64,000 nucleotides of DNA from Lepidodermella squamata. Lineage: Eukaryota > Animalia > Gastrotricha. A program made the position numbers and the translations under genes. Shown piece by piece: positions 36,742 through 63,613 of the stretch (the first letter of the stretch is position 1; every line of letters starts with the position of its first letter). Location: assembly GCA_047495785.1 (NCBI GenBank), contig JBLDXI010000066.1, positions 372,001 through 436,000 of the forward strand, written 5' to 3'. Below the pieces are notes generated by a model that made no database searches, had not been told where the DNA came from, and saw only the letters and a list, made by a program, of their open reading frames with translations.

Positions 36742-36765
36742 TGCTTATCTAGTTATTGCTGAATT

Positions 36766-37083: not shown

Positions 37084-37097
37084 TCCTTTGGTAAATT

Positions 37098-38477: not shown

Positions 38478-38502
38478 TGCAAAATTTCTAATCTAGCGGT
38501 AA

Positions 38503-39563: not shown

Positions 39564-39569
39564 CAAAGA

Positions 39570-39690
39570 ATGCATTATTTGAAGTGTAAGGAGCATACCG
39601 AAACCTTTAACGAACAATGAAAGGTTTCGGAAAACAAGTAAGTGAGCAATTCTCAAATTTTCGGCTCCAAAAAGAGCAAATTTGTCGAAT
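39570..39690 (+). pseudogene. Degenerate DUF5679-like zinc-ribbon ORF
   Basis: MHYLKCKEHTETFNEQ*KVSENK*VSNSQIFGSKKSKFV resembles the YCLKCK..TET...C..CGSKKSKF pattern, with two stops and lost cysteines. Confidence 0.55.
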
Positions 39691-39738
39691 CAGGACAAAA
39701 TATTTTGTTTGTAAAAGGTAGTAAGTGCTTTCCTGGTT

Positions 39739-40212: not shown

Positions 40213-40217
40213 TTGAA

Positions 40218-40931
40218 ATGAAATCTAGTTCAATTTTTATTCCTAGCGAATGGTCGGGAAGCTCGCATGGGTCGGATTTATTTCTACGCGCCGATGGGAA
40301 GAAAGGGCTCATGGGTAATATGAACGCAAATAATTTCAAAATTGAAAATCTTGGCCGCCCCGTTTTCGAAAATGACGCAGCATCGAAATCTTGGGTGGAA
40401 GAAAACACGTTGAATGAAAAAGAATCCAGGCAACTTATCGAATCGTATAAGCCGCTACAGTACGCTGATGACAGAACCATCGACATGAATGGTGGTCGGA
40501 TAACAAACGTGGCGTATCCCGTAGGTCTTTTTGACGTAGTCAACAAGCAATACGTTGATGGCCAAACATTTTTAGGCTTTGGTGAGAGTCATGTGAATGA
40601 CCAAACGAAAATGCCGGTAACAAGGGTGGTAACCCACACTTTGCTGGTTCAAATTAATGATGAGTTGTCTTTTCTCGAAAACATTTTGGCTAATGTGCAA
40701 TTTTGGTTTAGAATTTGGGAAAATGTCTCGCCAGGCTGCACTTGCGATTTCATGAAAAACGGCAGTGTCTTAATTTCTAAATATTTTTCATTCGACTACG
40801 ACGCGATTCGAAATATAGCCGAATACTGTACTTTCGTAGAACAGTTTGAAAATGGTGACACTTTCAGCATCATGATATCGTCCAGCAAACCTATAACTGT
40901 TGAATTTTGTATGAAAATATCTAACGTTTGA
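40218..40931 (+). CDS. Putative fibre/spike protein
   Basis: Two MN...I.N...P....D...K.(W/Y)V repeats (trimeric fibre/adhesin-stalk type), then a beta-rich C-terminal head. Confidence 0.6.
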   Translation: MKSSSIFIPSEWSGSSHGSDLFLRADGKKGLMGNMNANNFKIENLGRPVFENDAASKSWVEENTLNEKESRQLIESYKPLQYADDRTIDMNGGRITNVAYPVGLFDVVNKQYVDGQTFLGFGESHVNDQTKMPVTRVVTHTLLVQINDELSFLENILANVQFWFRIWENVSPGCTCDFMKNGSVLISKYFSFDYDAIRNIAEYCTFVEQFENGDTFSIMISSSKPITVEFCMKISNV

Positions 40932-41083
40932 TAAACGATGAAGTTCACTTCACTGAAACAGAATATAATATGATAATAAAAAAACGGGAAAAGCACACTG
41001 ACATGAAATTAAACCTGCAAAATTCGCTCCAGTCAGCAATCCCTGACAATTTTCGGGGGAAACTGTTAGAGGAAATGAATAGA

Positions 41084-42449: not shown

Positions 42450-42877
42450 TTCCAGGTTCCAGGCACCAGTTTCCAGGTTACAGATTCTGGACCCCCGGGG
42501 ATTTGTCAGATTATGCAATAGCCCCCACTTATATATTGTTCCAGATTCCAGGTTCCAGGTTCCAGGTTACAGATTCCAGGTCCCAGGTTCCAGGTTCCAG
42601 GTTACAGATTCCAAATTCCAGATTCTGGACCCCGGGAATTTGTCAGATTATGCAATAGCCCCCACTAATATGTTGTTCCAGATTCCAGGTTCCTGATTCC
42701 AGATTCCAGATTCTGGACCCCGGGAATTTGTCAGATTATGCAATAGCCCCCACTTATATGTTGTTCCAGATTCCAGGTTCCGGATTCCAGATTCCAGATT
42801 CTGGACCCCGGGAATTCGCCAGATTATGCATTAGGCCCCACTTATATATTGTTCCAGATTCCAGGTTCCAGATTCCC
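42450..42877. repeat. Subterminal tandem repeat array (4 units of ~88 bp with TTCCAG(A/G) heptamers)
   Basis: TTCTGGACCCCGGGAATTTGTCAGATTATGCAATAGCCCCCACTTATAT occurs 4 times, separated by variable heptamer runs. Confidence 0.9.
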
Positions 42878-42913
42878 CATTCCCTAGTTGAACCAAGCTT
42901 ACAGTATCTCACT

Positions 42914-43485
42914 CTCCGTTATACCTCTTGTACCCTCCTTATCAAAATACTTTCCCCAGAATTTTTCCACAATTTCCCCACAGTTTCCCAGAATTTTTCA
43001 GAATTTCCCCCAAATTCACCAGCCCTCGCCCACCTCTCACCTCTCACCCTTACCCTTACCCATACACCTTTCCCTACCCCTACCCCTACCCCCTACCCTC
43101 TGTTATACCTCTTGTACGCTCCCTTTCGAAATAATTTCCCCAGCAATTTGTTCCCCAAATTTTCCCCCAAATTTATTTACTCCCTTTCTCTCCTTTGCAC
43201 CCTCATTATCTCTTCGCTTTTTATAAATTCACCATTTATTTTTCCCCTAATTCCCAATTTCCCCCGCCCCACCCTCAATTTTTCAAAAAGGGTGTATGCC
43301 GAATCACTCGGTAAATACATCATATTCACAGCCATACACCCTTTTTTCGATAACCCCCAGTTTTTACAAAACCCAATACTCCCCCCTTGGAAATACACTC
43401 ACACCATATAGCCCTATAAATCATAATTTCTTTGATTATTTCACTTTCCCTGGGTTTGGTCTAGGACCGGCTATTGTACTCTACT
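42914..43485 (-). repeat. Polinton right terminal inverted repeat (572 bp)
   Basis: Reverse complement of 20145-20716. Confidence 0.95.
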
Positions 43486-43963
43486 GGTGTGTTGAACCGG
43501 GATACCTCCATATTCTTAGCCAGGGGTTTCGTGGGTTTCGAATGCATTTTTTCGGGATTCTGCTGTTGAATATTGCTAAGTGCAAAGGCTGAAATCGTTG
43601 TTAAATTTTTTTTTCAAATTATTTCAAAGCAGCCTACGGAATTTCCCTAATTTCGAGCGTTTTATCATACGAGCACGTTTGCCATCCGGAATGACGGCTA
43701 TGGAAAAATCATGTAAACCAAAAACAAAATGCATCCGAAACCCGAAACTCATGATTAATTTTTGAACGGTGTATAAGCTCTGTTTGCTAGCACACGTCCA
43801 CCCGAAGAGAAAAGAATCCGAGCCTTGTGGAATCGAAATTACGTTCTTTGATAATTGAGGCTGGTCCTTGACGTTTGCCAGGCAAAATTCACCACGTTAT
43901 GCTATTTGCTATTTTATTGCTTAAACTCTGCGTGCATCTTTCAATTCTTAAATTGATACTTAA

Positions 43964-44365
43964 CCCTTAGCCGCCGAAGACGTGTACACGCGTTAATTCC
44001 GGAGAAAATTCACCGTGGTCGGGGGATTTGGGCTATCGAACCCATTGTTGCGTCATAAATTATGATAAATCAATAGCTAGAAACAAGCACTCCCCGAAAA
44101 TCCAAATTTTCAAAGCCATTCCGACCAGGTCGAAAATAGTGAGAAAAATTTCAAGTGACTTGTTAACACGTCATGAAAACGCGTTAACACGTCATAGCAA
44201 CGGGAACCCAGGTAAATTTCTTCTGAAAAAGAGGTTCGACTTTCAATCTAAGGCTAAATGTAAGACTTTCTGCCGACTCAGAATTTGATTTTAGCCTCTT
44301 CTTGATTTTCTGGGATTTTCTGAAAGGTGCTCGAGTTAACACGTCATTGCGCCGGCGGCTAAGGG
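43964..44365. mobile_element. piggyBac-type MITE
   Basis: TTAA flanks (43960-43963, 44366-44369); 13-bp TIR CCCTTAGCCGCCG. Confidence 0.85.
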
Positions 44366-45533
44366 TTAAGCAGATCAAATGAAAGATAGCTTTCTCAACT
44401 CCTAATCTCCCCAACCTTCAACCTACAACCCCTCAGAACGCCATCAGATCTTTTTACAACAGATAAATAATAGCTCTTCAGTTCTACTTAAATCGTGTCT
44501 CAGCAGTCATAGATGGAGATAAACGGGTTTCAAAATCGTGATCTCCGCCCTCTACAACCCATGACCCCTCTAAACTCCATCAGATATGTTTTCTCCCCAG
44601 ATAAATGATACTGCCGTGAAAGGGTTATTTCAGGATTACGGAAGCTGGAAGATTCAAATTAGAGACCAATTTAAGGCAACATTATCATTTATCTTAGGTG
44701 ATGATTATTCTGAAACTTGAAATTTCTTATGGAACCTGGAAACATGACAGGACGGAAGCACCTACAGCTGGACTGGGGACGGGAAGAACATTCACTTGAG
44801 AAGTAACAGCTCAGGAAATTTTTCACATTTCGCGGTGGCCATGGACAGCAGTTTCAGCCGTTTTCGCCTAGGAAGTAAAAGGTTTCTTTGAAAGTCGCAT
44901 CGAATAGGAAATAATAGTGATGGTTGAATTCGACTAATCAACATCAATTTGATTGGATCACACACAACACTCTATGTTTATTATTTCGCAAACAACCGTT
45001 CGTGCAATAGCATTTTAAATAGTCAGTTATTTTTATCATAGCGCAGCCACTTTTTCCCATAGCGGAGAAAATTTCACAATAGAAACCATGAAATGAACAA
45101 TTGAACACGACCAGGCTTTTCGGCAAATATTTTTCATTTTGGAAAAGAAAAATATAGCATTCCTAATGTTCCAGCTGTTCCAGTCCGAGGCGATTAGCAT
45201 ATCGGAGTTATTTTTAGCTCGTTTTTTTATAGTTACAATGCTCCCTCGATAACTGCACCAAAGATAAGTCCAATTTCCTGGCAAACTGCCAGGCGCTTTC
45301 AACATTAATTGCTGAATTCAATTTATAAAAACAAAATAATTAGTTAATTATTTTAATTCAATGTGAATACCAAATTATTGCGAAAGCAGGCAGTGCTCTG
45401 GGGCCCTCAAAGCACTGCCCAAAAGGTTAAATCTTACATTTGAGCGGTGGCTAACAACAGTAATAGGATTTTTTAAAGACTGATTTTATTCCTAATATCG
45501 ACATTAGAAGGATTTGCGATGTCATTGAATTAA

Positions 45534-46037
45534 CACTTTAAATGCCAAAAATAGACTGCGAGGTCCGATATTTAGGTCTAATTCCTGGGTCTGTCAAAAA
45601 GTCATATTTTTCGGGTCAACGATGCGTCGAGGGGCAAAATGCCTGACGGCAAAGTGTAGGCCATGACCTGGCGGTTCTTTTGACACCGAATTTGGGGCCA
45701 CAAGGTCTGAGCAGGTCATTGAAAATGACAGTGAAATAACGTCGAAAATTTTGGATTAGAGCCAAAAATCAGACCTAAGAATTGGACCTAATTATTAGAC
45801 CCAGATTATGGCGCAACAATCGAAATTTCATGTTTTTCAAGTTTGATTTCTGTGCGTTCCTTGAAGTCTTTGGCCCCAAATTCGGTGTCAAAAGAACCGC
45901 CAGGTCATGGCCTACACTTTGCCGCCAGGCATTTTGCCCCTCGACGCATCGTTGACCCGGAAAAAATGACTTTTTGACAGACCCAGGAATTAGACCTAAA
46001 TATCGGACCTCGCAGTCTATTTTTGGCAGTTAAAGTG
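45534..46037. mobile_element. TTAA-flanked MITE with ~165-bp inverted arms (piggyBac-like)
   Basis: 45534-45699 is the near-perfect reverse complement of 45871-46037; TTAA on both sides; a related end occurs at ~56519-56542. Confidence 0.85.
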
Positions 46038-46986
46038 TTAAGTAGAATCGTGGAAAAACAATGATTGAAATATTTTGGGCACATTATCCGCCGGGACGAA
46101 TAAGACGTTGAAAGCCTCACGCAGTGCGCGGAGTAGGATGCTCGAACTAGGGGGAATTTGCGGGCCCCAATTTTATGCCTAGTTAGCACCAAACTAATAA
46201 CTAACAGGATACTCTCAGCAAATCGACTTACAACCAAAACATTTGTGAACGGCGGCGCCCGTATGATGCTGGAAATTATCTGGAAATAATTAAGCACTTT
46301 AAAGACTACGCCTGAACTTTTCAACTTCATCTCCCTGAAGATGATTTCTGTTAGAAATCGAAACGTCGGAAATAAACTGTTAGCGCTAAATTTCATCAAC
46401 CGTTTGTACTCCAAAAAACTGGTTATCAAAAACTATGTCAGATTTTATTACCAAATATATAGCTATAGCGTTTGGCATTAGGCGTTGGGCAATGTTTAAA
46501 GAAATTTCAAAACAAATTAAAAATTCAAGCAAATTTGAATATTTTCAATGTATTCTTGTGCGAGCCGCCATGCCTCACATTTTTACGGCACTGAATGCGC
46601 CTCGAGTACAGCAGCTAACGCGGATCCTCTAGCATTATTTTTGCAACCTAACTTCTTATGGGGAAAACGACTCGCCAAGGCCAGCTTCACGGTCAGCTTA
46701 TCGTTTATGAATTTTATTAGATCACACATCAGAATATATTTTTATTCGAAATCAACCAACCGTGCCATAGCATAGGGCAACAGGAGTATAGCGTTCGAGT
46801 TAAAATTAGATGTCAAGCATCGAGCGGAGTACAACAAGCTGATAGTTATACGTAATAGTGTACAATCACAATATACGATTAGGAAACAAAACCAAGCAAG
46901 ATGTTACTAGCTGGGATGATTCTCAACAAATTATGCGCTCCATCATCTCTCATCAATATAACGCTAACACTTGGTACTCATCACTG

Positions 46987-47140
46987 ACCATTGGGCGGGA
47001 TTTTAAAAGCTCCAAACGACCGAGCAGATCCCTCTTTACTTTTACCATTGGGCGGGATTATGAAAGCTCCAAATGACCGAGCTGATCCCTCCTTACTTTT
47101 ACCATTGGGCGGGATTATGAAAGCTCCAAATGATCGAGCC
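46987..47140. repeat. 57-bp tandem repeat, ~3 copies
   Basis: ACCATTGGGCGGGATTATGAAAGCTCCAAATGACCGAGC repeated; a diverged copy lies near 57931. Confidence 0.85.
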
Positions 47141-47964
47141 AATTCCACTTCTTCCCTGTGCTTAGGCCCTTGACGTACCGGCTTGCCGCAAATGACAACA
47201 GCAATCTGCAATAATAAGAGAATTCACACGATTTAAAACGAATTTGCTTGAACTATCGTAACTGACCAAGCTCGCAAACAGCAGATAGCGGATCATTTTT
47301 TTGAGACAATTTCAGATGAATTAAGAGAGGAAAAATAATGAACTGCCGCTAATGGCTGCTAATTGATGCAGGGTGCAGGGTGCTTAGTCTTCTGCCAAAG
47401 ATTCCACCTACCCAGTTAGCATGGGCGCTTGTTAGCTAGCTAGCTTCATTCTTGCGCGAACTAAAGAATCGCTTTGCTGTTGTCCCAGCTGCTTGCAGAG
47501 AAGCGATTAGCATATCGGAGTTATTTATAGCTTGTGTTTTAATAGTCAGCTATTTTTATCACAGGGCAGCCACTTTTTACCCGTAGCGGAGAAAATTTCA
47601 CAATAGAAACCATGAACCGAACAATTCACGAGTGCAAAACTTGCATATCAGGGAAAACCAGGTTACCGGGAAAATAGAGACTTCCAGAGAAAATATAAAT
47701 TCTCTAGAATAGAAAATAGAGAAAAATAGAGAAAAAAATAAATAAGATTAGTTATCTTGGTTATTTTTTCTCTATTTTCCTAGGAAATTTCCAGGTAAAC
47801 TCATTTATTGACATCGTTCAGCCAACGATATGATAAGATAAGAAGTATATAAACTGTAATTTCGATCATTTGTTTCCATTTATAAATCACTTTTCTTGGT
47901 GTAATATCTGGTATTATTACTTTTATCTTGTATCACAAATTCAATAATTCCGGCTCAGATCACA

Positions 47965-48361
47965 ATGTCTCCGATTTTGACAATCGTCTTAGCTGGGGTG
48001 CTGCTGCTTGTTTCATCGTCGTCCGTAGACGGGTTAGTAATATTCAACAAATGTGGTAACAAAATTATATTTATTTTTTGTAAAAAGGGCAATCCCAGGT
48101 TATAGTATCTGCTCGTCCGCAAGCTTTGATAACAAGCCAAGTCAAGGAAACTATCACGATTGTAGCGGTCAATGCATATGCAAGGGATGGACTAGTGGAA
48201 AGTGCGTTAATGGTACCTGCAAATGCGATACAGATCCGAAGAAATATACGTGCCAGCATGGTACTTGTTGGTGGGGGGACTGTGAATTCGACAATTATTG
48301 CGTAAAAGAAAATGCCGAACGTGATAAAAAGTATGGGTGCAAAACTGCAGGACGAAAATGA
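47965..48361 (+). CDS. Secreted cysteine-rich defensin-like (CS-alpha-beta) peptide, 2 exons
   Basis: Signal MSPILTIVLAGVLLLVSSSSVDG; intron 48033-48087; CSGQCICKGWTSGKCVNGTCKC motif plus a second Cys-rich tail. Confidence 0.75.
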
Positions 48362-48754
48362 TTGGTGACTACTGGCCAATGACAGCAGCGATCTATAGTC
48401 GCATAATACGAGAGTTTCAGATGTAAGAATGATCAATAAAATCGATAAAATTTCAACCTACCAGGCCAACCAACAGTAGGTAACTGTTCATTTTTCGGAT
48501 GGATTGCTTAAGAATGAACAAAGTTTTGTATATGAAGAATAATGAGGTACTGTCATGGGACTGCAATTTTTACAGGCTCGCTCTCGGGTGCTAACGTCAC
48601 TAGCTTTTTCACCTGATCATTCCGCATTGACGTATGACGTATAATTTGCGTTGCTCGCGAATTGCAGCAGCTGTTTCCGCTGGGGGAAGTGTCTCATGGT
48701 AGATGGTAGCCCGAATTCTGCTCTTGGGTTAGTTAAGTATACTCCTCGTACTGA

Positions 48755-51700
48755 CCCGGACTCAAACATTTTGATCATGCAGGCTCTGTAAATCTGAATA
48801 AAATTGTGTATTTGCCTGAATTTCGCTGTAAATTGTTGTGATGTCGATTTATTCCAGCTCAGGATCCGGCTGTAAGCTGATTTTTCGCCTCTGTAATTCG
48901 AAATAAGGCTGGATACAGCGGTTTACAACCGTGGAAATGCTGCTTTTTGCTGATGTAATTGGCAATAAGGCGTGTTATCCTGCTTTACAGACTGCCAAAA
49001 GCTGAAATCGGGGTCTGTAAAATGCTATGAGGCAATTTATCCGTCTTTACACACCTAGACAAGCTGAGTTTTCGGACTGTAACACTTAACTCTGCTTTAC
49101 AGACTGCCAAAAGCTGATACAAAGGGACTGTAAAATGCTCTTGGGTTAGTTAAGTATACTCCTCGTACTGACCCGGACTCAAACATTTTGATCATGCAGG
49201 CTCTGTAAATCTGAATAAAATTGTGTATTTGCCTGAATTTCGCTGTAAATTGTTGTGATGTCGATTTATTCCAGCTCAGGATCCGGCTGTAAGCTGATTT
49301 TTCGCCTCTGTAATTCGAAATAAGGCTGGATACAGCGGTTTACAACCGTGGAAATGCTGCTTTTTGCTGATGTAATTGGCAATAAGGCGTGTTATCCTGC
49401 TTTACAGACTGCCAAAAGCTGAAATCGGGGTCTGTAAAATGCTATGAGGCAATTTATCCGTCTTTACACACCTAGACAAGCTGAGTTTTCGGACTGTAAC
49501 ACTTAACTCTGCTTTACAGACTGCCAAAAGCTGATACAAAGGGACTGTAAAATGCTGTTAGACGAATGACACGGCTTTACAGACCTCGGCAGGCGGATAG
49601 TTTGGACAATAAAATGCTATAAGGCACGATACTTGGCTTTACAGACCGAGGCAAACTGTAATCAGGGTCTGTAAACTTATGTAAGTCAAGTTACCCGGTT
49701 TTACAGATGTCGGTAGGCGGAGTTTGCGGACTGTAAGATGCTATAGGGCAAGGTACACGGCTTTACAGACCTGGGCAATCTGAGTTCCCGGACTATAAAA
49801 TGTTATAGGGCTTTACACGGCATTACAGATCTAGACGAAGCTGAATTTCCTGACTCTGTAAGCGAAGGAAACTTCGAAAATGACCTAATATGTGAACCAC
49901 GGCGACGTGAAATTACATACTGTAAAATGCTGTAAACAGAATTTATCGTATTTTTAAACAAATTTAACCCGGTAACCGGCGATTATTCGCGAATAATCAC
50001 ACAATATTTTGATGTGAGGCATTGAAATTAGCTGGCGAAGTGAACAAAGCAACCTCCGTGTAATTTATTTAATTTATTCAGGGAGCAATAAATTGGTGTA
50101 AATTCTTGAAAATTCGTGTGACCAATTTTCGATAAAAGTGAGACAAATCGAGGTGGAACATTAAATCACATAAATTTTTGAAAAACATAAATTTCATCGA
50201 AGAAACGTGACATCTGTGGCGTACTTTCTCTTAAGACACGTATTTTTGTCTTCAAAATTACGGCGATCTTAAAAGCGTTAATTTCTTTAAAACTAGGAGA
50301 TTTTTTAGAATTTTTTTTCATTATGTTGAGATTCTATCTATTTGTGACATTTTCGGAATTTACAGGAATTTTTACATGAAGAAAAAAGATTAATTCTTCG
50401 CTGATCGAAATTCTCAATTTCAGTTGATCTTGCTATATTAGCCAGTAAATTATATCGTCATATTCAAGGATCAATTGTAAATTTATTTATTTTAAAGTTT
50501 ATTTAAAATGAATTTTGAATTTTCCTAATAAAAAGGTAATCAAGTGTTCACGATTTTAATTCAGTTAAAATTTAGAAGGTCATTTTAATACCATTATCAT
50601 TTAAAGCTCATCGGAATGCATTTAAGAGATACAATTAAATTTTCAGGGACTTGGCAATAATTTTGATTCGCCAATTTTTGTAGATGAGCATTTTCCAAAT
50701 AGGAAATCTGAAATTCCAGGTGAATTGAAAATAAATTTCAATTGACCTGTTTTCAGATATCATTTACCGTTTTTCAATTTTTGAATCGAACCGCTGACCC
50801 GAATAATAAATGACATAGGCAGCGGCAAGAATTTTAGCTGCGAATAGCGATAGCCAAATTTCTCAGTTAAATAGGAGCGATTCGAGTTTTTTCAATCACC
50901 ACGCCGCGAATTACGCAACAGCTGCTCGCACGCCACGTTTTGCACACGTGAATTAAAATGCATAACACACAAAAGCTAAACCACATATGCATTTTGACCT
51001 ATAAAAGTCAGTTTATCAGATGAATTGCCCATGCAGATTTCTTGGCTATTTTCTAGAGCGAATATTTAAGTTATTTTTAGCGAAATTCTGGACGATGTTA
51101 CTGTTCTGTTACTCTATACCTGGCGTGAGTTTAAAATTTGTCGAAATTACTGTTTATTATTTGCATGCATTTCATAGAAATCGGCGATGTCGAGGGATGA
51201 AAACGATGACGTCAAGGTGATACGCATCGTCTTTCCCGCATACCACATCGTTACAAGATAAGTTTTAATTCTCCTATTTTAATTCTGCAATTCGATCTCG
51301 TGAATTGGCTTGACTTTCCCCGGAATTGTTGACATTTTCAACACTCCTTAATTAATTCTTCAATGTGAATAATTTTAATTTTAATTTTTAGCCAAATTTC
51401 TGGTTTTTGTTCATTTCCCCCCAATTTTTCAACACATTGCCGTTCCGTATCAATTTCGAAATAAATTTTCTGATTTTTTTGTAATCAGGACACGTTCTTC
51501 AGAAAAGCCTCTTTTAATTTTTGCCGAGTTTTTTAAGCAATTAATTGAAAGAAATTCGAATTTTTATTTGCTATTTCAAAATCATAGATTAATCTGAAAT
51601 ATCTTAATTGATGAATTTTTATTGATTTTGCGACAGTTCGAGGCTGGAAAAATCACAGACTGCCCAGACGTTTTACAAACATTGAGAATTCAAAAACTTT

Positions 51701-52802
51701 GAGATTCAAAATTGTTTAAAATTTCATTGTAATTATTTCCTGAAATTCTATTATTTGTGGATTTATCCATTTTAGGAGTTGGCTTGCATCTCGGGTTCGA
51801 CAGCGGATCAATCTTATCGTGGCTGGTTTTGTTCACAGGTATAGCAATACATTTCATTTTGATTCCAAGTTCTGCTTAGTTTTCCCCTATTATTTCAGGC
51901 TGGATAGACAGCGCACTAATGGCTCGGTGACTCGATGCGTGTCGCAAATCACCGCTTGGCGGAAACTTCGTGATAACGAGAGACCTTGTTTTGCTGTTCG
52001 TTCAGCGGCGACTTGAATTTTCTTTTCATAAACGGCTTTTTTACGGTTGAGATCCTCATGAGTTTTGCTTATTTTCACGGAAAACTGAGTATTTTTTGGA
52101 AATGGCTTAATTTGTGATGCACGTTTGTGATGCACGTTTTTTGGCGAGAAATATATGGCTGATTTTGCTTGAAAAATATCACTTCGCGGCATTGGTTTGA
52201 CATTAGTTGCCCTGCGGATCTGAGCTTTTTAGCGTCGGAAATATGACCCGATATAATCAAAGATTTATATTATTCGTCTGAAAAATTTGCTGAAGTCGCT
52301 GATTGCCAATAATCTTTTCTCCGATTTTTTCAAAATCTCTCTTGTTATTGTTAAAATGGTTGTGAAAATCGATTTTGCTTGTAAAAATGAAGCAATTTGT
52401 GATCTTTTATAATTTACAGCGATTTGCAGACGCTGGTCGAGGCACTGTAAATTCCTGTACCAGCCCTGAGAGTGAAGACTTCACATTTTCGGCATTTTTT
52501 GCTCTTTAGTAGTTTAGAAAGCTTTCGAATTTCAAAGGCTGTGTAAACTGCTGTAGGGCAAAAATTGCATAACTTGTGAAGTTTTCACTTTCTGGGCTTT
52601 TACAGGAATTTACAGCGCCCTGGCGAGTGTCTGTAAATCAGTGCCAAGGTGATATTGAATTCCCAGTGTAATTGAGTGGAAGGTACCAATAAAAGTGCGT
52701 TTGTAAAAGGGTGTAAGTCAACATAAGATTTCCAGTGAAATACAGCAGAATACATTGACAGCAATTTACAGCGATTTACAGCGATGAATTTTTGAGTCCG
52801 GG
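48755..52802. mobile_element. Non-autonomous CMC/EnSpm (CACTA)-like DNA transposon
   Basis: TIR CCCGGACTCAAA / TTTGAGTCCGGG; 2-bp TSD GA; subterminal ~60-bp TTTACAG/CTGTAAA repeats; left end duplicated (second start at 49172). Confidence 0.65.
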
Positions 52803-53798
52803 GAGCTGTTAATATATCGCTGCGTTGTTGACGAAGCAGCCGACGCCATAAAAACCATTTTTACACCAAATCACACAACGCGCACAACTAACTAAGGTAC
52901 CTAGAATGCGTCGTGCATCGGGTCCAACTAGTCTAGCTCTCCAACTAGTCGCGGCCCAGTTTTATTCAACTCACTTACTCTCTTTTTTCATTGCCCTCAC
53001 CATCATCGACCTATTGAAATTCTTACTTAGAGCTCTGCTCCTCCCCTGACACTACTTTCAGCGCTGCTGAACGGATGTAACGATAGATGGAAATATGCAA
53101 ACTGTTGATGTTAATAAAGCACTTACCACTTACTGAACCTTTTTATTAGCAATTGGCCTCAATTTCGAACGTAATGTATCAAAATATATCGAACGTAGAC
53201 GCAATTGAAGCCCTGAGACACATTGTTCGTAAAATACCCGTTCGCCGCGTCATTTGCATGAGTGCCAGTTTACGGCCAAGGTCGGAGTTAACTACTACCG
53301 TATTACCGCGCTTCCTACGACATGTCCGTATGTCGTTATGTAATTTCAAGCTTATCTCAGGAAGTGACCCTACACCCTAGGCGTGATGGTTATACCTAGA
53401 ATGGTTATGAAACTACTTTTTGGGGCTTCCTTCTACCGAATCTAGCTTTCGGCTTTGTTGTATCCCAGTGATCTAGTGTGCGCTTGAATGGCTGTACACA
53501 GATGAGTAACGAATTATTTTATTGAAGTCTTCTTTACTTGGGACTATGATTTACTAAATGATCAGCAAATTAAGCATTACAAGTCATTCAACAAAACGAC
53601 TGAAAATCATGGAAACAGAAGCTTATATCTACACGGAATAGAGATAAGGTTAATTCAAAAGTGATTTTGTTATCTATATCGGGGAGCTAAGATTCTAACG
53701 GGGATTGAATGTCTGCAATAAACTAGTAGGCTTATGAGAAGTCCTAGAATGTCGAAACCAATCCGTAATTCAGTCCATTATTCCGCCATCTCACTGGC

Positions 53799-54355
53799 TT
53801 ATTGCTCTCTGGGCTTCCCGTTCTTCAACGCATCCTTGAGACCCTTCGCAGCGGCTTTGGAGACGGCCGACGCAGCTCGGGCGGATTCCTCCTCTCTGGG
53901 CTCCCCGTTCTTCAACGCATCCTTGAGACCCTTCGCAGCGGCTTTGGAGACAGCTGACGCAGCTCGGGCGGATTCCTCCTCTCTGGGCTTCCCGTTCTTC
54001 AACGCATCCTTGAGACCCTTCGCAGCGGCTTTGGAGACGGCCGACGCAGCTCGGGCGGATTCCTCCTCTCTGGGCTTCCCGTTCTTCAACGCATCCTTGA
54101 GGCCCTTCGCAGCGGCTTTGGAGACAGCTGACGCAGCTCGGGCAGATTCTTCCTCTCTGGGCTTCCCGTTCTTCAACGCATCCTTGAGACCCTTCGCAGC
54201 GGCTTTGGAGACAGCTGACGCAGCTCGGGCAGATTCCTCTTCTTTTTCGCTAAACACGGTAGCAATCTTTGTTTTGAAAAATAAAATTGAACTTTCTATT
54301 CATAATATACATGGCTCAACCTTACCAGGCATGCTAACAGCAGATAGCGGAACAT
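53799..54355 (-). CDS. Secreted multi-copy peptide precursor (5 x AASAVSKAAAKGLKDALKN-G), candidate antimicrobial peptide
   Basis: Exon 1 (54355-54326) MFRYLLLACL; exon 2 from 54266 IATVFS..; five 87-bp units of EEESAR-peptide-G(K/E)PR. Confidence 0.8.
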
Positions 54356-56544
54356 TATCTCAACAATTGAGGAAGACTTTCGAAACGAAAAAAGATGAAA
54401 TGCTGTTTCCTGTCATGAGTTTCACTGAAGTTGCTCTCTGGTGCCAAGGGCACTTGCCAACTAATTCGTCTGCCTAATGCAATTGAAGAATTTGTTTGTG
54501 TCGTTACAGCTGCGCTCACTAAGGCAAAGTGGCGTGTAGGAGCGCGTTTTCTCTTCCTTCTCGTAAGCTTATAATTATTAGGAGATGAACTGGAAAGATA
54601 TCATCACAATTAATAATTTTGTCATTCAGAAGCGTATTTTTCGTGTTTAAGAAGCAATGGACACAAAGAAGTTTAAAAATTTCAATCAATTTTTTCCAAC
54701 TTTTTGTGTTGCAAAATAGATCATGTTTGACCGTTAAAACGTTTGAGGAATGAAATGGTAAATCTCATCGATATCATCCTTCTATTGATCTAAGGAAATA
54801 AATCATGGTTGGAGAGCAAATTGGAGAGCAGCAGATTATCCTGCGATTCAAACGCACCAGAATGAACATTGCTGAAAAGCTTTCTTGTGATGATTATTAC
54901 CGACAATTACGAACATTCAGTCAAAACTACAGTTTGGCATCAGTGTGCGACTTTCAGGGGGGGAGGGGGGATGGGGGGGATCATCCCCCCAGCTCGGCCA
55001 GACGACAAAATGAGAATTTATCCCCCTATTTCGTCAATTTTGAGAGGTTCTGGAGCGTGTTTTAGTGAAAAATCTGCAAAATTTTCTCGCTTCGCGCGGT
55101 TATCCCCAAAACAACTAGTAATTTTGGCAAATACAGCAAAACTCTTTTTTCCATCCCTGGCAGCTCGAGGATCCAAGATCGCACCCTGTTTGGCATCAAA
55201 AAAGTGCCTTAGCCACATGATTGTCCACGAACGCCGCTACAACAGTTCTCCGCAATCTTTTTCCACAGCCGGCATTTTTGGCCGCCGGAAAGGCTTGACT
55301 TGGCCGCAGATACAATCAGATCCTTCTCCGGCCGGTTTGTCGAATGCCAGAACTCCAGATCCAACCAGTTCTTCACTGTATTTAAAAACGAACTTCACTA
55401 CTTATGCCGACTGCTTCTCCGCAACTAACAAAATGATTCCTACGGCGTTAGGCCCTCAGCGATCCTACGCGCATAGAGAACGAAGTGATCTGTGATAAAT
55501 GCCTGTGCGACACAACTTTTATCCATTACGGGCCACAGTTTTATATCGCGGGCAACCCCACAGGGCTCTCGGGGGTCATAACTTTCACTTGAAACTTCAC
55601 TTAACTTCAAATCACGTGAATTGATTAGTTCTTCCTGTTTCCTACTCGAACAAAGATGAGGGACAATATTCAAGATTACCGCTTTGGACCCAGCACACCA
55701 GAGGTTACTAATATATGAGAGCGAAACGAGCTTTAGCTAACGGTATTTTACTGAAATTTTGGTTGAAAATGGTCTAAAATGGGCTGATTTTCGCGTCATG
55801 ATCGAAGAAAACGGGTAGCCGCGCGGTAGTCCGCCGCATTCCAACCATCCTTCGAGAAAAGCTTTATTCCAGCCGCGATGAACTGCTCCACCGAGTTTGT
55901 GGAGCACTGCGCTATTTGATATTACTGAAGTTTTTATGATCTCAGTTGGTCTTTTATGTGGCTTAAATATAACGTTTGAGTCTCATCCTGGAATTTCCCG
56001 ATGTAGCTTTTCATCGCTCAACCGTCAACTGGTATTCGGCGGATTTTACCTCTTTGCAAAAATGACTTTCTAATGTCTTTCAAATACTATCTGATGGGAA
56101 GATTCTCAGAGGAATTAATGACGAACAAAAATAAGAAGAAAAGTGGATTGCTGCTGTAGTCTGCATTGTTATAAGCTATTGTAGGGCTATTGTTATAAGC
56201 TCTCCGCTGCCACCTACTTCACCCGCTCACTCAGTACTGGCGTTTCTCAGCTAGGCTTCGTCATTCTTGTGTAAACGGAAGAACTACTCTTTCTATTGTT
56301 CCAGCTGCTTCGCCGATGCGAATCGGTAGGTCGGAGCTCGATTTCGCTTGTTTCTAATTGCCAGCTATGTTTTAAAACTAGAAAAAACGGCATCAGAGGA
56401 ATTAGGATGCGTTCACCTGAGATAACCCCAAAAAACCGACTTTGCATTAGAATATGTGATGAGCTTATTGCGCAACGAAATATCAATTGATGCGATATGC
56501 GATAAAAAACTACATTTGTTAACACCTTAACTGCCAAAAATATA

Positions 56545-57924
56545 CAGTGCGTTCACTAACTAATATGCCGGTTATTTTTAGAAACAATGAATCACACGCA
56601 CTTCGTCATAGCGATGTTAGCAATTAATGCTTATGAATGGCTAGTTTTATAGCGTCAATTAAACCGATTTGTATACACTGAATGAAATACCATTTCATAG
56701 CCTTATTATTATCACTTGCTACCACTACTATCACTCCCAATTTAACAGCCACTTTAGTTCAATAAAATTTTAGGAGTTTTCTTGTAGCACAGTAACACCA
56801 GGAAAGTTTTACACGTCATTTCGGTAAAATCACTTCCATTTTTAATCAGTTGGCCATGTCTTGCCCCTGATTCTTTGGTGCTCAATATCTGGTTAAGATA
56901 TTACTAGTTACTAGGCAGTCTTTTGACGTAAGAAAGCGGACGTCATCTCTTTACAACATTTAGTTTTGGATCACCTGAGGCGAGGATCTTAGCGCCTACA
57001 GGCATCCGGCTATGGCCATCTTTACTCTAATAATAGCTAATGGCACATTTTGCAAATGGTTCATTCGATTTGATATTTGCGGGCGAGACTGAAAAGTCTC
57101 ATTAATAGAGTGAAACTGCGCAATAAAACGCAAAAGCTAACCAACAGTTGTCCTCTCATTTGCATATATTCACAGTATTCACAGAATTAAAATAATCGCG
57201 TGTTTCAAAAGTGTTGATGATCTCACTTTTTCCCTGAGTTTTTTCGTGCTTTTTATTAATATTTCCATATTAGTCGCGTGCGGATAAAGGTCACGTTTAA
57301 ATTCGAAAGGTAAAATACTATATAGTCTTGCAACCAGAGCATTCAGCCCAGTTGATCCCAAGGCAGTTTTTCATGTAAAGAAACGAGATTTCCCTTTTTT
57401 CTCCTCCAAGAAGGAGGCGCGAAAGCTTAAAATCTTCAATAATAACGACGTTTCCGAAGGTACTCTTTCCGGGCCGAGAAGGCGTGAGGGCATTCAAAGG
57501 ATAGACATCGCGTTTCTCTCAGCTTTAAGAGAAAAACTTGCATTACTTGGGCCACTTATTCATCTATATATAAAATCATTTCGAAAAATAATCCTCAGTC
57601 ATTTGGAATTTTCAAGTATCACATTAATTTTCAGAACTTTCGATTAATAAAATAAAAAAACTGCCATTTTCGTAGAAAGATATTTTCAAGGTAAAAAGAG
57701 TCGCCAAAGCATCACCTGCGAAGAAATAGATAAAGAGGCGATAAAATTCAATTGACGTAAATACTAACGTACGCAATAAGCAATAAAATCAGAAAATACG
57801 TGCGCAATTATCGGTAATAAACGCGAGGCCACTATCTACACGTAAATCGGTCGCAATTGGCAGTAAAACTGTGCTATATATAGGATTCTAAAAATAGCCG
57901 GCATATTAGTTAGTGAACGCACTG
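56545..57924. mobile_element. Non-autonomous Tc1/mariner-type element
   Basis: TA TSD; ~37-bp TIR CAGTGCGTTCACTAACTAATATGCCGG...; no transposase ORF. Confidence 0.85.
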
Positions 57925-59617
57925 TACGTATCACTGACCATTACGCGGGACTCTGAAAGCGCCCAATGATCCAAGCGTCCAAACGCAATTCATTGGCCAT
58001 GAACTATGAAATAAACTCAATAAGCATGTTGACCCTTTCACGGCGGAATTAGTTATCTGTGGGAGAAACCATATTTGACACCAGTTCTAAGGGTTTTAGA
58101 GGGCCCTGATCACGATTTTGAAACCCGTTTATCTCTATCTATCACCGTTAAGGCTGTACACTGGCCGAAATCGCCCTATCGGCCCAGCTGATTTCAGCCG
58201 ATTTTTCAAACACCCTAGTTTCTGTCTTAGATGCTTAGAACATTGGATTTTCAGACTCAAATTGCTCTCGTGGAAGTCCTTAACGATTCCCTTTACTGAA
58301 GTTATCAAAAGGAACCCGTTAAAGCCAGTTTCAAAAATCAGTGTTGAAATCAGTATTCAGCTTTCTCATCTTTTTCATGCGCAGCTGTTTTAGAGCACAA
58401 ATATCTGTATAAGTCCTGGCGGATAGGACGATTTCGGCAGATTTGTTTAAATTTCAATAGCGTCGTCATTCTTAATTTTCAACTCGAAATAATTGACACA
58501 GAGGTCAATGAGACTAAGCGGACACCGTGGTATTTTTTGCTCGTTCAAAAACCGAACTTTTACGGTGCAAAGGTTACCATGTGCCAAGCGACGTTTTTAT
58601 GCGTATAATTTAAGCGATGTGCGCCTAGCTAAATGCATGTAAAATCGACCCATTTTTAAATCAATTTTTAAAAAACTTCATTTTTCTGATTTTTTGATAA
58701 CGTTTATCCTAGTACAACTTTTAGCGCTCTTTCGAACGAGACAAGGCTCGTCAACCTGGGACATTCACAAGGTCATCTAGATATTCGCAAAGTTGGTCAC
58801 AAAATCCCGAAGATCGAAATTTGTCGATTATGTCGGGGCGGAAAGAATTGTCAAAATTAGATCGGAAAATTTCAGAAACAATATTTTCTTTACCAGGATG
58901 GGCTAAGCTGTCGAAATATATAACTTTTGTCCTCATCCGATTTTTGGGAACTTTCTAGGTTTTGCATGGGCATGTTGAAATTAATGCTTTGAAATGATTT
59001 CGCTTTCCTGTGTGACTGTAGATCTCAGCAATCATAGGAAATTATCTCCTGGCTTGGCTGTGACACCAAACGGGAGAGAATGAGCCAATAAAAAGGAAGT
59101 ATATACGAAATATCAATTCCTAGAATATTCCATTCCTTTCCGGCTTTCCGCATTCCGCATTGGAGCTGTTGTGGTTAAAAACCCCGTTTAACTTTAACCC
59201 GGTTAACGTTAACTTCATTGACAGTTTCCATACAATGAATCTTGCCTGCAAAAAATGTTGCTCAGGGCACATTGCTCATTTTGAACGATGAATAATTTAA
59301 AAACCAGATTTTCGTATTACTGTAGAGCGCGATGAGTACATTAGGAATCCGTTGAAAAGACCTTGGTTTTTACAGCTCGTACACCCTTCACATCCCGTGC
59401 CTGGCACCGATCGATCCGCCTTAATTGCCAGAATTGCGGAACTGGAGTCACGGCTTGAAATGTCAAATTTTAATGCCCTATTCCCCTAATCAACACTATT
59501 CCATCACTCTTTTGCTTAGGTTTGATGTGATAATGATATTAAAATTATCGTTTTGATGTGTACATAATCAAATGAACATCATAATATTGCCAAAGTGCAT
59601 ACAGCTAGATCTAATTA

Positions 59618-59763
59618 AGAGAGAATTAAGCCAAGGGAATTGGAGGAATCGGCTCGAGGAAAGAAGAGGAAACCAAGGGAATTATTCAAATATAATTATG
59701 GAGCGAAAATCCTCGGTCTGGTTCAGCAAAATAGCCTAACAATTTGTTCTAATGAGGGGTAAC
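59618..59763 (+). pseudogene. Fragment or exon of a third member of the EE(S/A)AR...KPR precursor family
   Basis: RIKPRELEESARGKKRKPREL; upstream sequence is inverted-homologous to 60323-60364. Confidence 0.55.
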
Positions 59764-60355
59764 TGGAAACCCGCCAACATTCACCACACCTTCTTCTCCC
59801 GCCGCTCAACAAACAGCTATCTTGTGATGTTTTATAATTGCAGTCGACTAAAGCCGACAGGGTTGTTGAAGTTTTGGGAGTTCCGTCTTTTTACTGAAGA
59901 CCCGTCGCTCAGTCTTTTGAAGTCTTTTCGAAACGATCGAGCGCCCATGCTAAGGTTAGTTAAGTGAACTACGATAATTTACTCTCGCGAGATCATTCGA
60001 GACTCAGTTTTGACACAATTCTACCCAATCTTCGAATAAGTAACCTATCCTACTAAATGTAACATGCTGAATAGTAAAAACAACAGTAGAGTGTTCTGGA
60101 ATTACCTTTCACCGATTAGGAGTGGTTTGACTCGACTACATCCATACATAGCATAGCCTGAAGTCTGAAGTGAAAGTATTTTTCGTTTTGGCATCTTTTC
60201 ATGCTTCTATAAAATGTATTCGACCATTCAAAAATCCGAGGTAGTTCCGGCCGCTTGCACCGCTCTTTCACCGGTTAATTTGCATGGCCAAATGACGAGA
60301 TCAAGCTATCTTTTCCAACAGAAGAATTCTCTCTTAATTAGTTCTGCGGCTGTAT

Positions 60356-61192
60356 TCACTTTGGCTTCCTCTCCTTTCCTCGAGCTGCTTCCTCTGCTTC
60401 CCTTGGCTTTCTCTCCTTTCCTCGAGCTGCTTCCTCTGCTTCCCTTGGCTTTCTCTCCTTTCCTCGAGCTGCTTCCTCTAATTCTCTGGGTTTCCTCTCC
60501 TTTCCTCGAGCTGCTTCCTCTGCTTCCCTAGGCTTTCTCTCCTTTCCTCGAGCTGCTTCCTCTGCTTCCCTAGGCTTCCTCTCCTTTCCTCGAGCTGCTT
60601 CCTCTGCTTCCCTTGGCTTTCTCTCCTTTCCTCGAGCTGCTTCCTCTGCTTCCCTAGGCTTCCTCTCCTTTCCTCGAGCTGCTTCCTCTGCTTCCCTTGG
60701 CTTTCTCTCCTTTCCTCGAGCTGCTTCCTCTGCTTCCCTTGGCTTTCTCTCCTTTCCTCGAGCTGCTTCCTCTGCTTCCCTTGGCTTTCTCTCCTTTCCT
60801 CGAGCTGCTTCCTCTGCTTCCCTTGGCTTTCTCTCCTTTCCTCGAGCTGCTTCCTCTGCTTCCCTTGGCTTTCTCTCCTTTCCTCGAGCTGCTTCCTCTA
60901 ATTCTCTGGGTTTCCTCTCCTTTCCTCGAGCTGCTTCCTCTGCTTCCCTAGGCTTTCTCTCCTTTCCTCGAGCTGCTTCCTCTGCTTCCCTAGGCTTTCT
61001 CTCCTTTCCTCGAGCTGCTTCCTCTGCTTCCCTTGGCTTTCTCTCCTTTCCTCGAGCCGATTCCTCTGCCACTCTTGCCATGTCGCAAATTACGGCAGCG
61101 ATCTATATTGAAGAATAATTCATTGATGTATATGTCAAGTATTAGGAATATTCGAAACCTACCAAGCACGCCAACAGTAGATAACGGATCAT
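60356..61192 (-). CDS. Secreted repeat precursor (17 x EAEEAAR-GKERKPR), paralog of 53799-54355
   Basis: Exon 1 (61192-61163) MIRYLLLACL; exon 2 from 61102; 42-bp tandem units. Confidence 0.75.
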
Positions 61193-63174
61193 TTTTACTG
61201 AAATTGATGATGAATTTTGAAACGAAAAAGAACGAAATGCGACGATGATGCTGCATACTTTTATTTTCTTGCTACCGGATGCTCATGTGACTCGTCTCAA
61301 ATAGTTCACCTGCTCGTATAGAATGTTCGTCATTCTTGCGCGAACCAAAAAATAATCTACATATTGTTCTGCCAGCTTGCATGAAAATTGTCAATAGCAC
61401 ATTCATTAAGTGCAATAATATGAACTGAAAAAATGACAAAACCGACGTCGTTTTTTATTATTTTGACGGCTGTGTTTCGACCAAGGTTCATCCTTGTGAA
61501 TTGAAAGATTATGAACAATTTCTGCGAAAGATGAAGCTAGTTCGGCTTAGAAGTAGCTTGGAAACTGGAAGCTCAGGCCCTGTTCATTTCGCATGGTCGT
61601 TACTTTCATTAGACTTATATGTGCTAACCGGAGCATTACCTCAACAATCCAGCCGAACGGACTTGAAGCACACATTAGCATCGAACATCTCAATTTTGAT
61701 TCTTAGTGATAATTGGGATGAGAACCATTGACAAAAATCAACAGCTCTCTCGCCGCTCCTTAAATGATGATAATGATGAGAAATTCTGAATTCGAAATTG
61801 AAATCCGAAACACAGGTTCATATGGATCCTCGATCGAAGCAGCAATGTTCCTATTCTAATGTCCAACGGCATCCGCTAATCATTGAATAATAGATGGTGA
61901 CGCAAAATCAAACAAGAGAACCAAAATTCAGCTATCAGCTTGGAAAATTCATAAGCACTGATAGCAAGTTATGAAATCAATTCTACTTCTTAGCAGTACA
62001 GCTGACTCGCTTCTACAGGCCGCCAGTTTCTGGCACCAGAGCGATCCGGACAAGATTTCAGGTAAATTTTGTTCCCAACGTTTCGAGTCTGATATTTATG
62101 TCTCTAAGTTGACGTCAGAGACCTGAATGGTGTTTTCTGGATAAAAATTGTCGTTCGCCCGGAAAATACACTTTTGCTCGATACAATTTACGAACCTTTC
62201 GATAGCCATTCGATGCCAGCGCGAAAATCCGCCTTAATTTTTTCAATCCTGCCCGCGAAATATTGACATTTGGCATAGAATTCTCTCTTTCGAATGATGA
62301 TAGCGAGACTGTAGGGTGCGAATTAAAGGAATGCTAGGGTGTCGCGGCGCCCCAGCTAGCAGCTCTGGGACCCTAAACATAGGAAGGCTCAACAAACCAG
62401 AGGGGGGGGGCCCTTTGGTTTAATCGGCTGGGTGCTAGAAACCTGCTAGAAAACAACCCAGCTACCGGATCCTACTTCGCACACTGCGAGACTGCATGCG
62501 ATTTCAAGGAAACCATGTCTCCTGGAGCGATTTTCGCCATTGTTCTCGGTTCTATCCTAGCGTTGCTGGGCGTGGCGAAACTGTTCATTGGAATTTGCAG
62601 TCGTAACAAACAAAATTACAAACAGTATTTGTGAAAAGTTTGAAAAATGATTAATTTCAATATATTGAAGAATTTTTCTGCAAGTAAAGAAATATCCCGT
62701 TCTGTAGCTTTGCGCCTTTTGCTTTTATCATTCATTTAACAGACTCAGCAATACCAAAGCCTACAATTGCGTATTAATGGTTAATGGATTGTTCTTTACT
62801 TATGCGAAACATTTGATGCCCCATCGTAAAATTTGATGAAAAACACGTGAAAAAATACTACACACACTTATAAATTCAGCGCGCACGAGAAAATTCTACA
62901 TCCATATGTTTGCATAACACATGAAATAAGGCATGAATTCAGTTTCAAACCCATGAATTTGGGGAAAAAATTGAGCCCTAAATGGTAGGCTTTTCACTAA
63001 AGCTTATACAACGTGTGCTTAAGTTTCATTCTCTTTCATAAAAGCTTGTAATTCATGGGGTAGATTTTCATTCTTTTATTGCATGTTTTATAACTTTAAT
63101 TCCTCAAATCATCAAGCTAATGACGTTTTCTTCATGGTGACAGGCCTGAAAAACGTTCAGTTTTCAAATGGCTT

Positions 63175-63613
63175 GTGCTAATTGACATGCCTATTGTCAC
63201 CAATAAGCCGAAGAATTGTATCAGAGTTCTTCATGAGATTTTCAACCTGCGAGTTAAGCTATTGCCTGAATTTACAATATCGCGGAAACTCACCGAAGTT
63301 GGGACCAAGAAACTGAAGCTAGATCTCATCAACCGCCAGTTCGTCGTCTACAAGTTCACATGTGGCCAGTGTGACGCTGGAATGACAGCCGGAATGACGG
63401 AGAAGCACCTTCAAGAGCGCGCTGAAAAACATTGGCTGAAGTCAGGCTCGATCGGATAGCATTTGCGCTTACATGAATAGCCTGATGGCTTCAACCTGCA
63501 CGCATGTTTCAAGGTTTTACGCAGTAATGCAGTAACAGATGGGACTGTTTATTGCTTGTTGATAGAGGAAATCAAACTAACATACTCGCAATCAAACGCG
63601 CAATCAGATTATT
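63175..63613 (+). mobile_element. Degenerate Penelope-like retroelement GIY-YIG endonuclease fragment
   Basis: VVYKFTCGQCDAG..GMTEKHLQERAEKH followed by stops and frameshifts. Confidence 0.7.

What the first reader, a model, noticed from the sequence alone, without database searches (positions are those of the whole stretch)
53799..54355. Multi-copy precursor of a candidate amidated amphipathic antimicrobial/cytolytic peptide
Seen: after splicing, a signal peptide precedes five copies of AASAVSKAAAKGLKDALKN, each preceded by an acidic spacer ending EEESAR and followed by G(K/E)PR. Synonymous differences between units suggest coding constraint. Established: acidic spacers ending in Glu-rich XXXR motifs with Gly amide donors characterise spider linear venom peptide precursors; Ala/Lys-rich helices typify PGLa/dermaseptin-like peptides. 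Inference: a new 19-mer cationic helical peptide family.
Basis: partly seen in the sequence, partly recalled or inferred. Interest (0 to 1): 0.72.

Follow-up and report, generated by a model that had tools for sequence, protein, structure and literature searches.

The report
Cassette peptide-precursor cluster in a spiralian
This is a real two-exon gene with a predicted secretion signal and five copies of a short, positively charged helical peptide, one of four neighbouring look-alike genes that carry different peptides between similar linkers, likely cut up into a mildly membrane-binding defence secretion in an invertebrate that is probably not a spider.

Summary
Observation confirmed: a two-exon gene (59-nt GT..AG intron, 165 aa) with a hydrophobic leader and five 87-nt repeats; 6 of 7 differences between repeats are silent (P=0.0024). 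Between related G-K..E..A-R linkers they carry this helix (A), a Pro-rich decapeptide (D) or linker-like charged units only (B). Contigs of two public runs cover A's 3' end; one shows B's intron removed. No homologue was found in five protein searches. The linker fits the spider iPQM/PQM rule, but a neighbouring channel gene points to a spiralian host, so the likeness is probably convergent. Two claims weaken. Amidation: the Gly is followed by K/E-Pro-Arg, not a usable basic site, so the spider rule gives a 22-mer acid. Cytolysis: the helix is amphipathic (moment 0.385) but barely hydrophobic (0.07 against 0.38-0.46 for listed PGLa variants). An uncut helical-repeat protein and a signalling role remain live rivals. 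Verdict: a new family of multi-copy peptide precursors, a variant of a known kind; function untested.

The parts
54326..54355 (-). Gene A exon 1: ATG and first 10 codons of the hydrophobic leader
   Evidence: 67-83% DNA identity to exon 1 of B, D, E
54267..54325 (-). Gene A intron, 59 nt, GT..AG, phase 0
   Evidence: the splice is inferred from the same position in B, whose intron is removed in a contig of run X3
53799..54266 (-). Gene A exon 2: end of leader, 8-residue acidic spacer (54248-54225), five 29-codon units, stop
54168..54224 (-). First 19-residue cargo helix; further copies at 54137-54081, 54050-53994, 53963-53907, 53876-53820
   Evidence: charge +3, hydrophobic moment 0.385, reached by 0.9% of 20,000 shuffles
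54138..54167 (-). First internal linker G-K-P-R-E-E-E-S-A-R, with iPQM- and PQM-type Arg sites; repeated every 87 nt; truncated form at 53819-53799
   Evidence: definitions from PMC8290080
53518..53798 (-). Likely 3' untranslated region of A, ending near AATAAA at 53523
   Evidence: contigs of X2 (53688-53779) and X3 (53528-53692) cover it
60356..61192 (-). Gene B: same leader exon (61192-61163), 60-nt intron, 17 highly charged 14-residue units resembling linkers without cargo; 258 aa
   Evidence: intron 61103-61162 skipped in an X3 contig, adapter-like tail at 61229
46981..47296 (-). Gene D: same leader exon (47296-47267), 61-nt intron, 18-residue propeptide ending E-L-A-R, three Pro-rich decapeptides ending Asn-Gly; 84 aa
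48369..48491 (-). Gene E: leader exon and 69-nt intron, stop 7 codons into exon 2; likely truncated or a pseudogene
57931..57969 (-). Fragment F: diverged copy of D's last cargo (8 of 12 residues identical, still ending N-G-Q-stop); no leader found upstream
59589..59684 (+). Fragment C: inverted, rearranged partial copy of B's units and 3' end; no leader

Best explanation
Gene A encodes a 165-residue protein with a predicted signal peptide that is likely cut after arginine at both ends of its Glu-rich linkers, which would release five copies of a 19-23-residue cationic amphipathic helix that likely binds anionic microbial membranes as a mild defence peptide in a gland or mucus secretion. Shown: gene structure, repeats, coding constraint, the paralogue family, amphipathicity by calculation. 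Inferred: secretion; the cut after S-A-R (N-terminus); the cut after P-R with trimming (C-terminus, most simply a 22-mer ending G-K-P or a 23-mer); charge masking of the cationic cargo by the acidic linker during storage; the defence role. The family would work as a cassette system: a fixed leader and linker, with cargo swapped and amplified by unequal crossing-over.
For: Four genes share leader exon and phase-0 intron (9-13 of 16 leader residues identical; a DNA profile finds exactly these four, E<1e-34) while the cargos are unrelated, the pattern described for frog defence-peptide genes (PMC3731216 passages). In A, B and D three different propeptides all end E-x-A-R just before the first unit. 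N-G-K and S-A-R are kept between A and D with mostly different third codon positions (AAC GGG AAG against AAT GGT AAA). All 5 S-A-R sites in A meet PQM, all 5 P-R-E sites meet iPQM, and the gene ends in a truncated linker like the spider t-linker. The 19-mer has charge +3 and moment 0.385 (shuffle P=0.009), near the 0.270-0.376 given for natural PGLa variants. The lipid-binding factor D is 1.37 on the cargo and 0.1-0.6 across the linker, threshold 0.68. Contigs of X2 and X3 lie on A, B and D; X3 shows B spliced; X2 has a poly-T end on a D-like copy.
Against: Mean hydrophobicity is 0.07, far below the 0.38-0.46 listed for PGLa variants (PGLa's own value was not in the passages seen). Factor D is not specific: mitochondrial Tim44 stretches with like values pass it. 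Cargos of B and D are not amphipathic helices, so defence is not a family-wide property. D's two internal linkers fail the PQM rule (0 of 2). A has no dibasic site. One of five AlphaFold models folds the uncut repeats as five 26-residue helices with the S-A-R site in mid-helix (pLDDT 77.5, pTM 0.68; the other four 50-54). A's own splice junction was not seen. No peptide, tissue or activity data exist here.
Confidence: 0.42

Rival explanations
1. The precursors are cut as above, but the products are signalling peptides (neuropeptide-, hormone- or pheromone-like) acting on receptors, not membranes.
For: Multi-copy identical short peptides are the usual layout of neuropeptide precursors (established knowledge). 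D's short hydrophobic decapeptide followed by G-K could be amidated at 2 of 3 copies. Monobasic Arg sites occur in nemertean precursors (PMC8557429 passage). A's cargo is weakly hydrophobic.
Against: No dibasic site in A or D. No motif match to a precursor of this kind in the supplement of PMC8557429 (NGKPR 0, YLLLACL 0; the 8 passages shown for other motifs were unrelated proteins). Unrelated cargos in a young tandem cluster with decayed copies fit secretion arsenals better than conserved neuropeptides (inference).
Confidence: 0.2
2. The proteins are secreted uncut: A as a five-helix repeat bundle and B as a charged rod, serving in mucus, adhesive or shell matrix; the 'linker' is a helix cap and turn.
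For: AlphaFold's best single-sequence model gives helices 9-34, 38-63, 67-92, 96-121, 125-149 with G-K-P turns. It matches designed helical repeat proteins at Z 15-16. Gly-Lys-Pro followed by Glu-Glu-Glu is a typical helix C-cap, turn and N-terminus (established knowledge). B yields no obvious bioactive cargo.
Against: Only 1 of 5 models is confident. The best natural match, Z 11.7, is under the tool's own bar of about 13 for helical bundles. B gives no tertiary fold (pTM 0.26) and D's Pro-Pro units cannot share A's fold, so the conserved E-x-A-R and N-G-K need another reason. Spider propeptides are also partly helical.
Confidence: 0.2
3. One reading: the product is the amidated 19-mer and is a potent cytolytic or venom-type peptide. 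It would need a non-standard route: Arg removal, then removal of Lys-Pro as a dipeptide, then amidation.
For: Similarity between A and D begins at Asn-Gly, and D's propeptide and B's units begin G-K, so the cargo may end at Asn with Gly free. The spacing G-x-x-basic-E holds in 7 of 8 A and D units. ACE-type dipeptidyl carboxypeptidases can remove C-terminal Lys-Pro (recalled; search gave no paper that I read on it).
Against: 0 of 5 canonical Gly-basic sites in A; D's last copy ends N-G-Q-stop. Low hydrophobicity argues against strong lysis. No evidence of a venom gland.
Confidence: 0.12

Closest known systems
Spider linear venom peptide complex precursors (cupiennins and related; PMC8290080, PMC7889660)
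   Same: Signal peptide, acidic propeptide ending in PQM, several cationic helical peptides separated by short anionic Arg...Arg linkers with iPQM and PQM, terminal truncated linker.
   Different: No sequence homology found; host probably spiralian; propeptide 8 residues against 25-49 in Cupiennius; five identical copies rather than varied ones; no Gly directly before the linker Arg; much lower hydrophobicity; no venom-gland evidence.
Pipid frog magainin / PGLa / caerulein precursors (PMC3731216)
   Same: Tandem gene cluster, conserved signal and cleavage sites with divergent cargo, near-identical tandem copies, Ala/Lys-rich helices.
   Different: Frog sites are RXXR, KR or RR and derive from a CCK gene; here there is no RXXR or dibasic site in A, the repeats lie in one exon, and no homology was found.
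Multi-copy neuropeptide precursors of spiralians (PMC8557429)
   Same: Signal peptide plus repeated short peptides; monobasic Arg cleavage is possible.
   Different: No dibasic sites in A or D; cargos unrelated between paralogues; no known peptide motif matched.
De novo designed helical repeat proteins and Mp1p-type five-helix bundles
   Same: The best model of uncut A superposes at Z 15-16 on designs and Z 11.7 on AfMp4p.
   Different: Generic helical arrangement, 8-22% identity, 1 of 5 models; shows no function or kinship.

Membership tests
Spider linear peptide complex precursor | PQM: Arg at -1 with Glu at -2 to -4 before each peptide | tested here: met
   5 of 5 in A; 1 of 3 in D (definition)
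Spider linear peptide complex precursor | Anionic linker from iPQM Arg to PQM Arg | tested here: met
   REEESAR, 4 internal linkers plus a truncated one
Spider linear peptide complex precursor | C-terminal Gly directly before the linker (amide donor in most cupiennin families) | tested here: not met
   Gly is two residues away, G-K/E-P-R, 5 of 5
Spider linear peptide complex precursor | Sequence homology to known spider signal, propeptide or peptides | tested here: inconclusive
   No hit; short repeats search poorly; the supplement search found not even REEE and may not hold the sequences as text
Spider linear peptide complex precursor | Spider host | tested here: not met
   Neighbouring Kv gene: no spider among the 120 hits listed, best named hits all spiralian; tree 97/97. 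Caveat: an AU test did not reject grouping with arthropod Shaw, p=0.087
Spider linear peptide complex precursor | Venom-gland expression and PQM protease processing | not testable with these tools
   No tissue or peptide data
Pipid PGLa/magainin family | N-terminal RXXR and C-terminal RXXR, KR or RR sites | tested here: not met
   A has E-S-A-R and K-P-R, no dibasic site
Pipid PGLa/magainin family | Cationic amphipathic Ala/Lys-rich helix | tested here: met
   +3, moment 0.385; helix predicted
Pipid PGLa/magainin family | Mean hydrophobicity near 0.4 | tested here: not met
   0.07 against 0.377-0.464 for the variants quoted
Cationic helical antimicrobial peptides (functional class) | Kills microbes or permeabilises membranes | not testable with these tools
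   Needs synthesis and assay
Canonical neuropeptide precursor | Dibasic or Gly-basic convertase sites | tested here: not met
   A: none; D: G-K at 2 of 3 cargos, no dibasic site

The most novel reading that the evidence does not exclude
A spiralian lineage has independently evolved a spider-style Glu/Arg linker cassette: one leader-and-linker scaffold, amplified in a tandem cluster, releases unrelated peptides (a cationic helix, a Pro-rich decapeptide, a polycationic heptapeptide) as a combined defence secretion, with the conserved Asn-Gly junction processed by a non-standard route. In the boldest form (about 3%) an asparaginyl endopeptidase cuts there and closes D's decapeptide into a ring, a ribosomal cyclic peptide in an animal.
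Probability: 0.25. Interest if true: 0.72.

Novelty: new variant of a known kind. Interest (0 to 1): 0.5.

Why it matters
Known spiralian antimicrobial peptides are mostly molluscan, with big defensins the most abundant group (bioRxiv 10.1101/2023.02.02.526830 passages). The PQM/iPQM linker system was described for spider venom. A second, independent use of that logic in a poorly sampled phylum would be a clean case of convergent peptide processing. It would also give a small family whose cargos can be synthesised and tested at once. If the proteins stay uncut, it is an ordinary lineage-specific repeat family.

Tried and rejected
No whole genome is held, so the family outside the window is not counted. 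No RNA holder was listed by record. A's own splice junction was not seen: the joint table was cut (57 rows not shown) and no closer view was obtained. Word-based homologue searches: A exon 2, 0 of 7,995 candidates at E<=0.01; D exon 2, 0 of 68 at E<=1; only near lengths were searched. HMMER over 1.84 billion representatives: 14 hits at E<=0.001. I read 11 of the 14 sequences and scanned all 14 with Pfam: HEAT, LRR, SPOR and other unrelated repeat proteins matching by period, so rejected; the Ectatomin and Sol i 2 labels on P0126 come from summed repeats. ESM Atlas: no usable hit for A or D. Pfam: nothing above cut-off for A, B, D. PDB sequence search with one unit: one designed protein, E=1.9. 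Foldseek: no match at E<=0.001. Earlier scan findings: none in 4 look-ups. Motif search of the paper library returned noise in the 40 of 2,670 listed. Supplement searches of PMC8557429, PMC10414684 (file 4 cut when stored) and PMC8290080 showed no such precursor; bioRxiv supplements are closed and subscription journals are not searched. Searches on carboxypeptidase E with Pro, on ACE and on legumain gave nothing usable. The 251-aa plus-strand ORF over the array was rejected as the antisense shadow: no leader and no counterpart in the paralogues. Host phylum unresolved: AU tests rejected neither annelid (p=0.17) nor arthropod grouping (p=0.087), and a flatworm grouping appeared at support 46. 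No complex prediction was run, as no binding claim is made.

Full report
Observation. The array is real: 53805-54243, period 87, 5.0 copies. On the minus strand it lies in exon 2 (54266-53799) of a two-exon gene whose exon 1 (54355-54326) has ten codons and whose intron is 59 nt, GT..AG, phase 0. The product is 165 aa: a hydrophobic 16-residue leader, an 8-residue acidic spacer, then five copies of AASAVSKAAAKGLKDALKN, each followed by G-K/E-P-R. Among units 6 changes are silent and 1 is not (P=0.0024). The antisense frame sharing third positions scores the same, so the strand is fixed by the leader and paralogues, not by this test.

The family. A self-comparison showed the same leader exon three more times. 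A DNA profile finds exactly four such heads in the window, at E below 1e-34, with the next hit at E=0.33 (the four match by construction, the point is that there is no fifth). B (61192-60356) has 17 units of 14 charged residues, 5 silent and 2 non-silent alleles, the latter in one codon (P=0.014, 16 full units compared). D (47296-46981) has three Pro-rich decapeptides, SFGAFIIPPN twice and one variant. E stops seven codons into exon 2. F (57969-57931) and C (59589-59684) are fragments. All four heads have a 59-69-nt intron after codon 10 and share 9-13 of 16 leader residues. A, B and D have different propeptides that all end E-x-A-R. A and D share N-G-K and S-A-R around unrelated cargos, with third codon positions mostly changed. 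B's unit reads as G-K...E-E-A-A-R, a linker without cargo.

Expression. No run is on record as RNA. Four runs were laid as contigs on 44000-63500. X2 has depth in 8 of 30 bins: six on or beside A, B/C and D, and two trace bins. Only A was used to find it. X3 has a contig that skips B's intron exactly (joint 61102-61164 with one silent letter) and a tail at 61229 that I recall as a cDNA template-switch adapter; X1 shows no such joint. X2 has a poly-T end on a D-like contig with 41 differences in 289, so at least one more copy exists elsewhere. X2 and X3 contigs cover A's 3' region up to 5 nt from the AATAAA at 53523. Depth from contigs cannot rank genes. A's own junction was not seen. X1 may be the window's source and is not counted as support.

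Host. The Kv channel gene at 16404-18805 has molluscs, annelids, nemerteans, a brachiopod, a bryozoan and flatworms as its best named hits (up to 330 bits, mostly 39-47%). The best arthropod scores 236 bits at 37%, and no spider or frog is among the 120 listed of 240. A careful tree of 31 rows chosen from these hits puts it on a long branch in a 97/97 spiralian clade, outside the mollusc, nemertean, flatworm and bryozoan groups. Against this, on a 17-row quick tree AU tests rejected neither a join with arthropod Shaw (p=0.087) nor with annelids (p=0.17), and a flatworm join had support 46. Spider and frog proteomes are well represented in NCBI (recalled), so their absence counts. I take the host as probably spiralian, phylum open.

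Processing. By the published definitions (PMC8290080, passages) A's five S-A-R sites are PQMs and its five P-R-E sites are iPQMs, giving the linker REEESAR. Spider precursors are cut after Arg and the Arg is then removed; some end in a truncated linker (PMC7889660, passages), as A does. Applied here the rule yields a 22-mer ending G-K-P, not an amide. No Gly in A is followed by a basic residue without Pro, and there is no dibasic site; Lys-Pro bonds resist convertases (established knowledge). Yet similarity between A and D starts at Asn-Gly, and this holds in all 8 cargos and in fragment F whatever follows (K, E or Q). That leaves two non-standard routes: removal of a C-terminal dipeptide followed by amidation, or an Asn-specific cut. 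Both enzymes' properties are recalled; my searches (listings only) gave no paper to cite. D's internal linkers fail the PQM rule (0 of 2).

The cargo. The 19-mer has charge +3, mean hydrophobicity 0.073 and moment 0.385; 0.9% of 20,000 shuffles reach that moment (Fauchere-Pliska scale from memory, checked by hand against one table row). Val5, Ala9, Leu13, Ala16 and Leu17 form one face. The HeliQuest factor is 1.37 on the cargo and falls to 0.1-0.6 across the linker (formula and 0.68 threshold from PMC4624131, passages). The same table shows non-defence mitochondrial stretches passing, so this means 'can bind anionic lipid', no more. Natural PGLa variants have moments of 0.270-0.376 but hydrophobicity of about 0.38-0.46 where quoted (PMC11921344, passages). 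Strong lysis is therefore unlikely; mild or synergistic activity is open.

The uncut rival. Single-sequence AlphaFold gave one model of five with pLDDT 77.5 and pTM 0.68: five 26-residue helices with G-K-P turns and the S-A-R site in mid-helix; the others scored 50-54. Its best matches are designed repeat proteins (Z 15-16); the best natural one, Z 11.7, is below the bar for helical bundles. B gave one long helix with pTM 0.26. No common fold explains the family's shared motifs, but A alone could fold before cleavage or stay uncut.

Novelty. No relative was found (the 14 hits are unrelated repeat proteins), nor in Pfam, PDB sequences, earlier scan notes, paper searches (listings and abstract starts) or three supplements. 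Short repeats search poorly, so this is not proof. Other papers seen as passages only: PMC3731216, PMC8557429, bioRxiv 10.1101/2023.02.02.526830, PMC4280546 (nothing relevant). PMC10414684: supplement search only.

Verdict. It works like a spider or frog multi-copy linear peptide precursor but is a member of neither family. Odds: cut, membrane-binding defence peptide of 19-23 residues 0.42; signalling peptides 0.20; uncut repeat protein 0.20; potent amidated 19-mer 0.12; other 0.06. New variant of a known kind; interest 0.5.

Noticed in passing
window 26647-41000: Polinton/adintovirus-like element: a 1544-aa ORF that reads like a protein-primed DNA polymerase (judged by eye; Pfam gave only a weak Endonuclease_7 hit), an integrase with PLA2-like and chromo domains, an A32-type ATPase, a weak adenoviral protease hit and a capsid-like ORF. 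Similar sequence at 20011-20788 and 42659-43589 may mark inverted ends.
   Followed up: partly
window 16404-18805 (-): Kv3/Shaw-type potassium channel, nearly intronless, on a long branch; used to place the host.
   Followed up: yes
window 13627-14025 (+): Temptin C-terminal domain protein (E=5e-10); a related stretch lies near 14916-15398.
   Followed up: partly
window 2237-3337 and 15460-16320 (+): Long single-ORF DXD glycosyltransferase and 2OG-Fe(II) oxygenase genes.
   Followed up: partly
window 9528-11814 (+): Gln/Pro-rich ORF and a Pro/Glu/poly-Lys repeat ORF with no clear Pfam family.
   Followed up: no
window 56543-57926: Element with 41-nt terminal inverted repeats (98% complementary) inserted 4 nt after fragment F's stop codon; likely a DNA transposon.
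   Followed up: no
window 45014-45233 and 44943-45013: Scrambled copies of D's upstream region and 3' end, suggesting a further decayed paralogue.
   Followed up: partly
window 47446-47497 and 61330-61381; CAGCTG 157-195 nt upstream of the A, D and E start codons: Shared upstream motif in B and D, and an E-box-like hexamer at a similar distance in 3 of 4 genes; possible common promoter; not tested against chance.
   Followed up: partly
window 48719-49556: Perfect 417-nt tandem duplication (100% identity); recent duplication or assembly artefact.
   Followed up: no
window 45530-46041: MITE-like element with 171-nt arms, very high depth in run X1.
   Followed up: no
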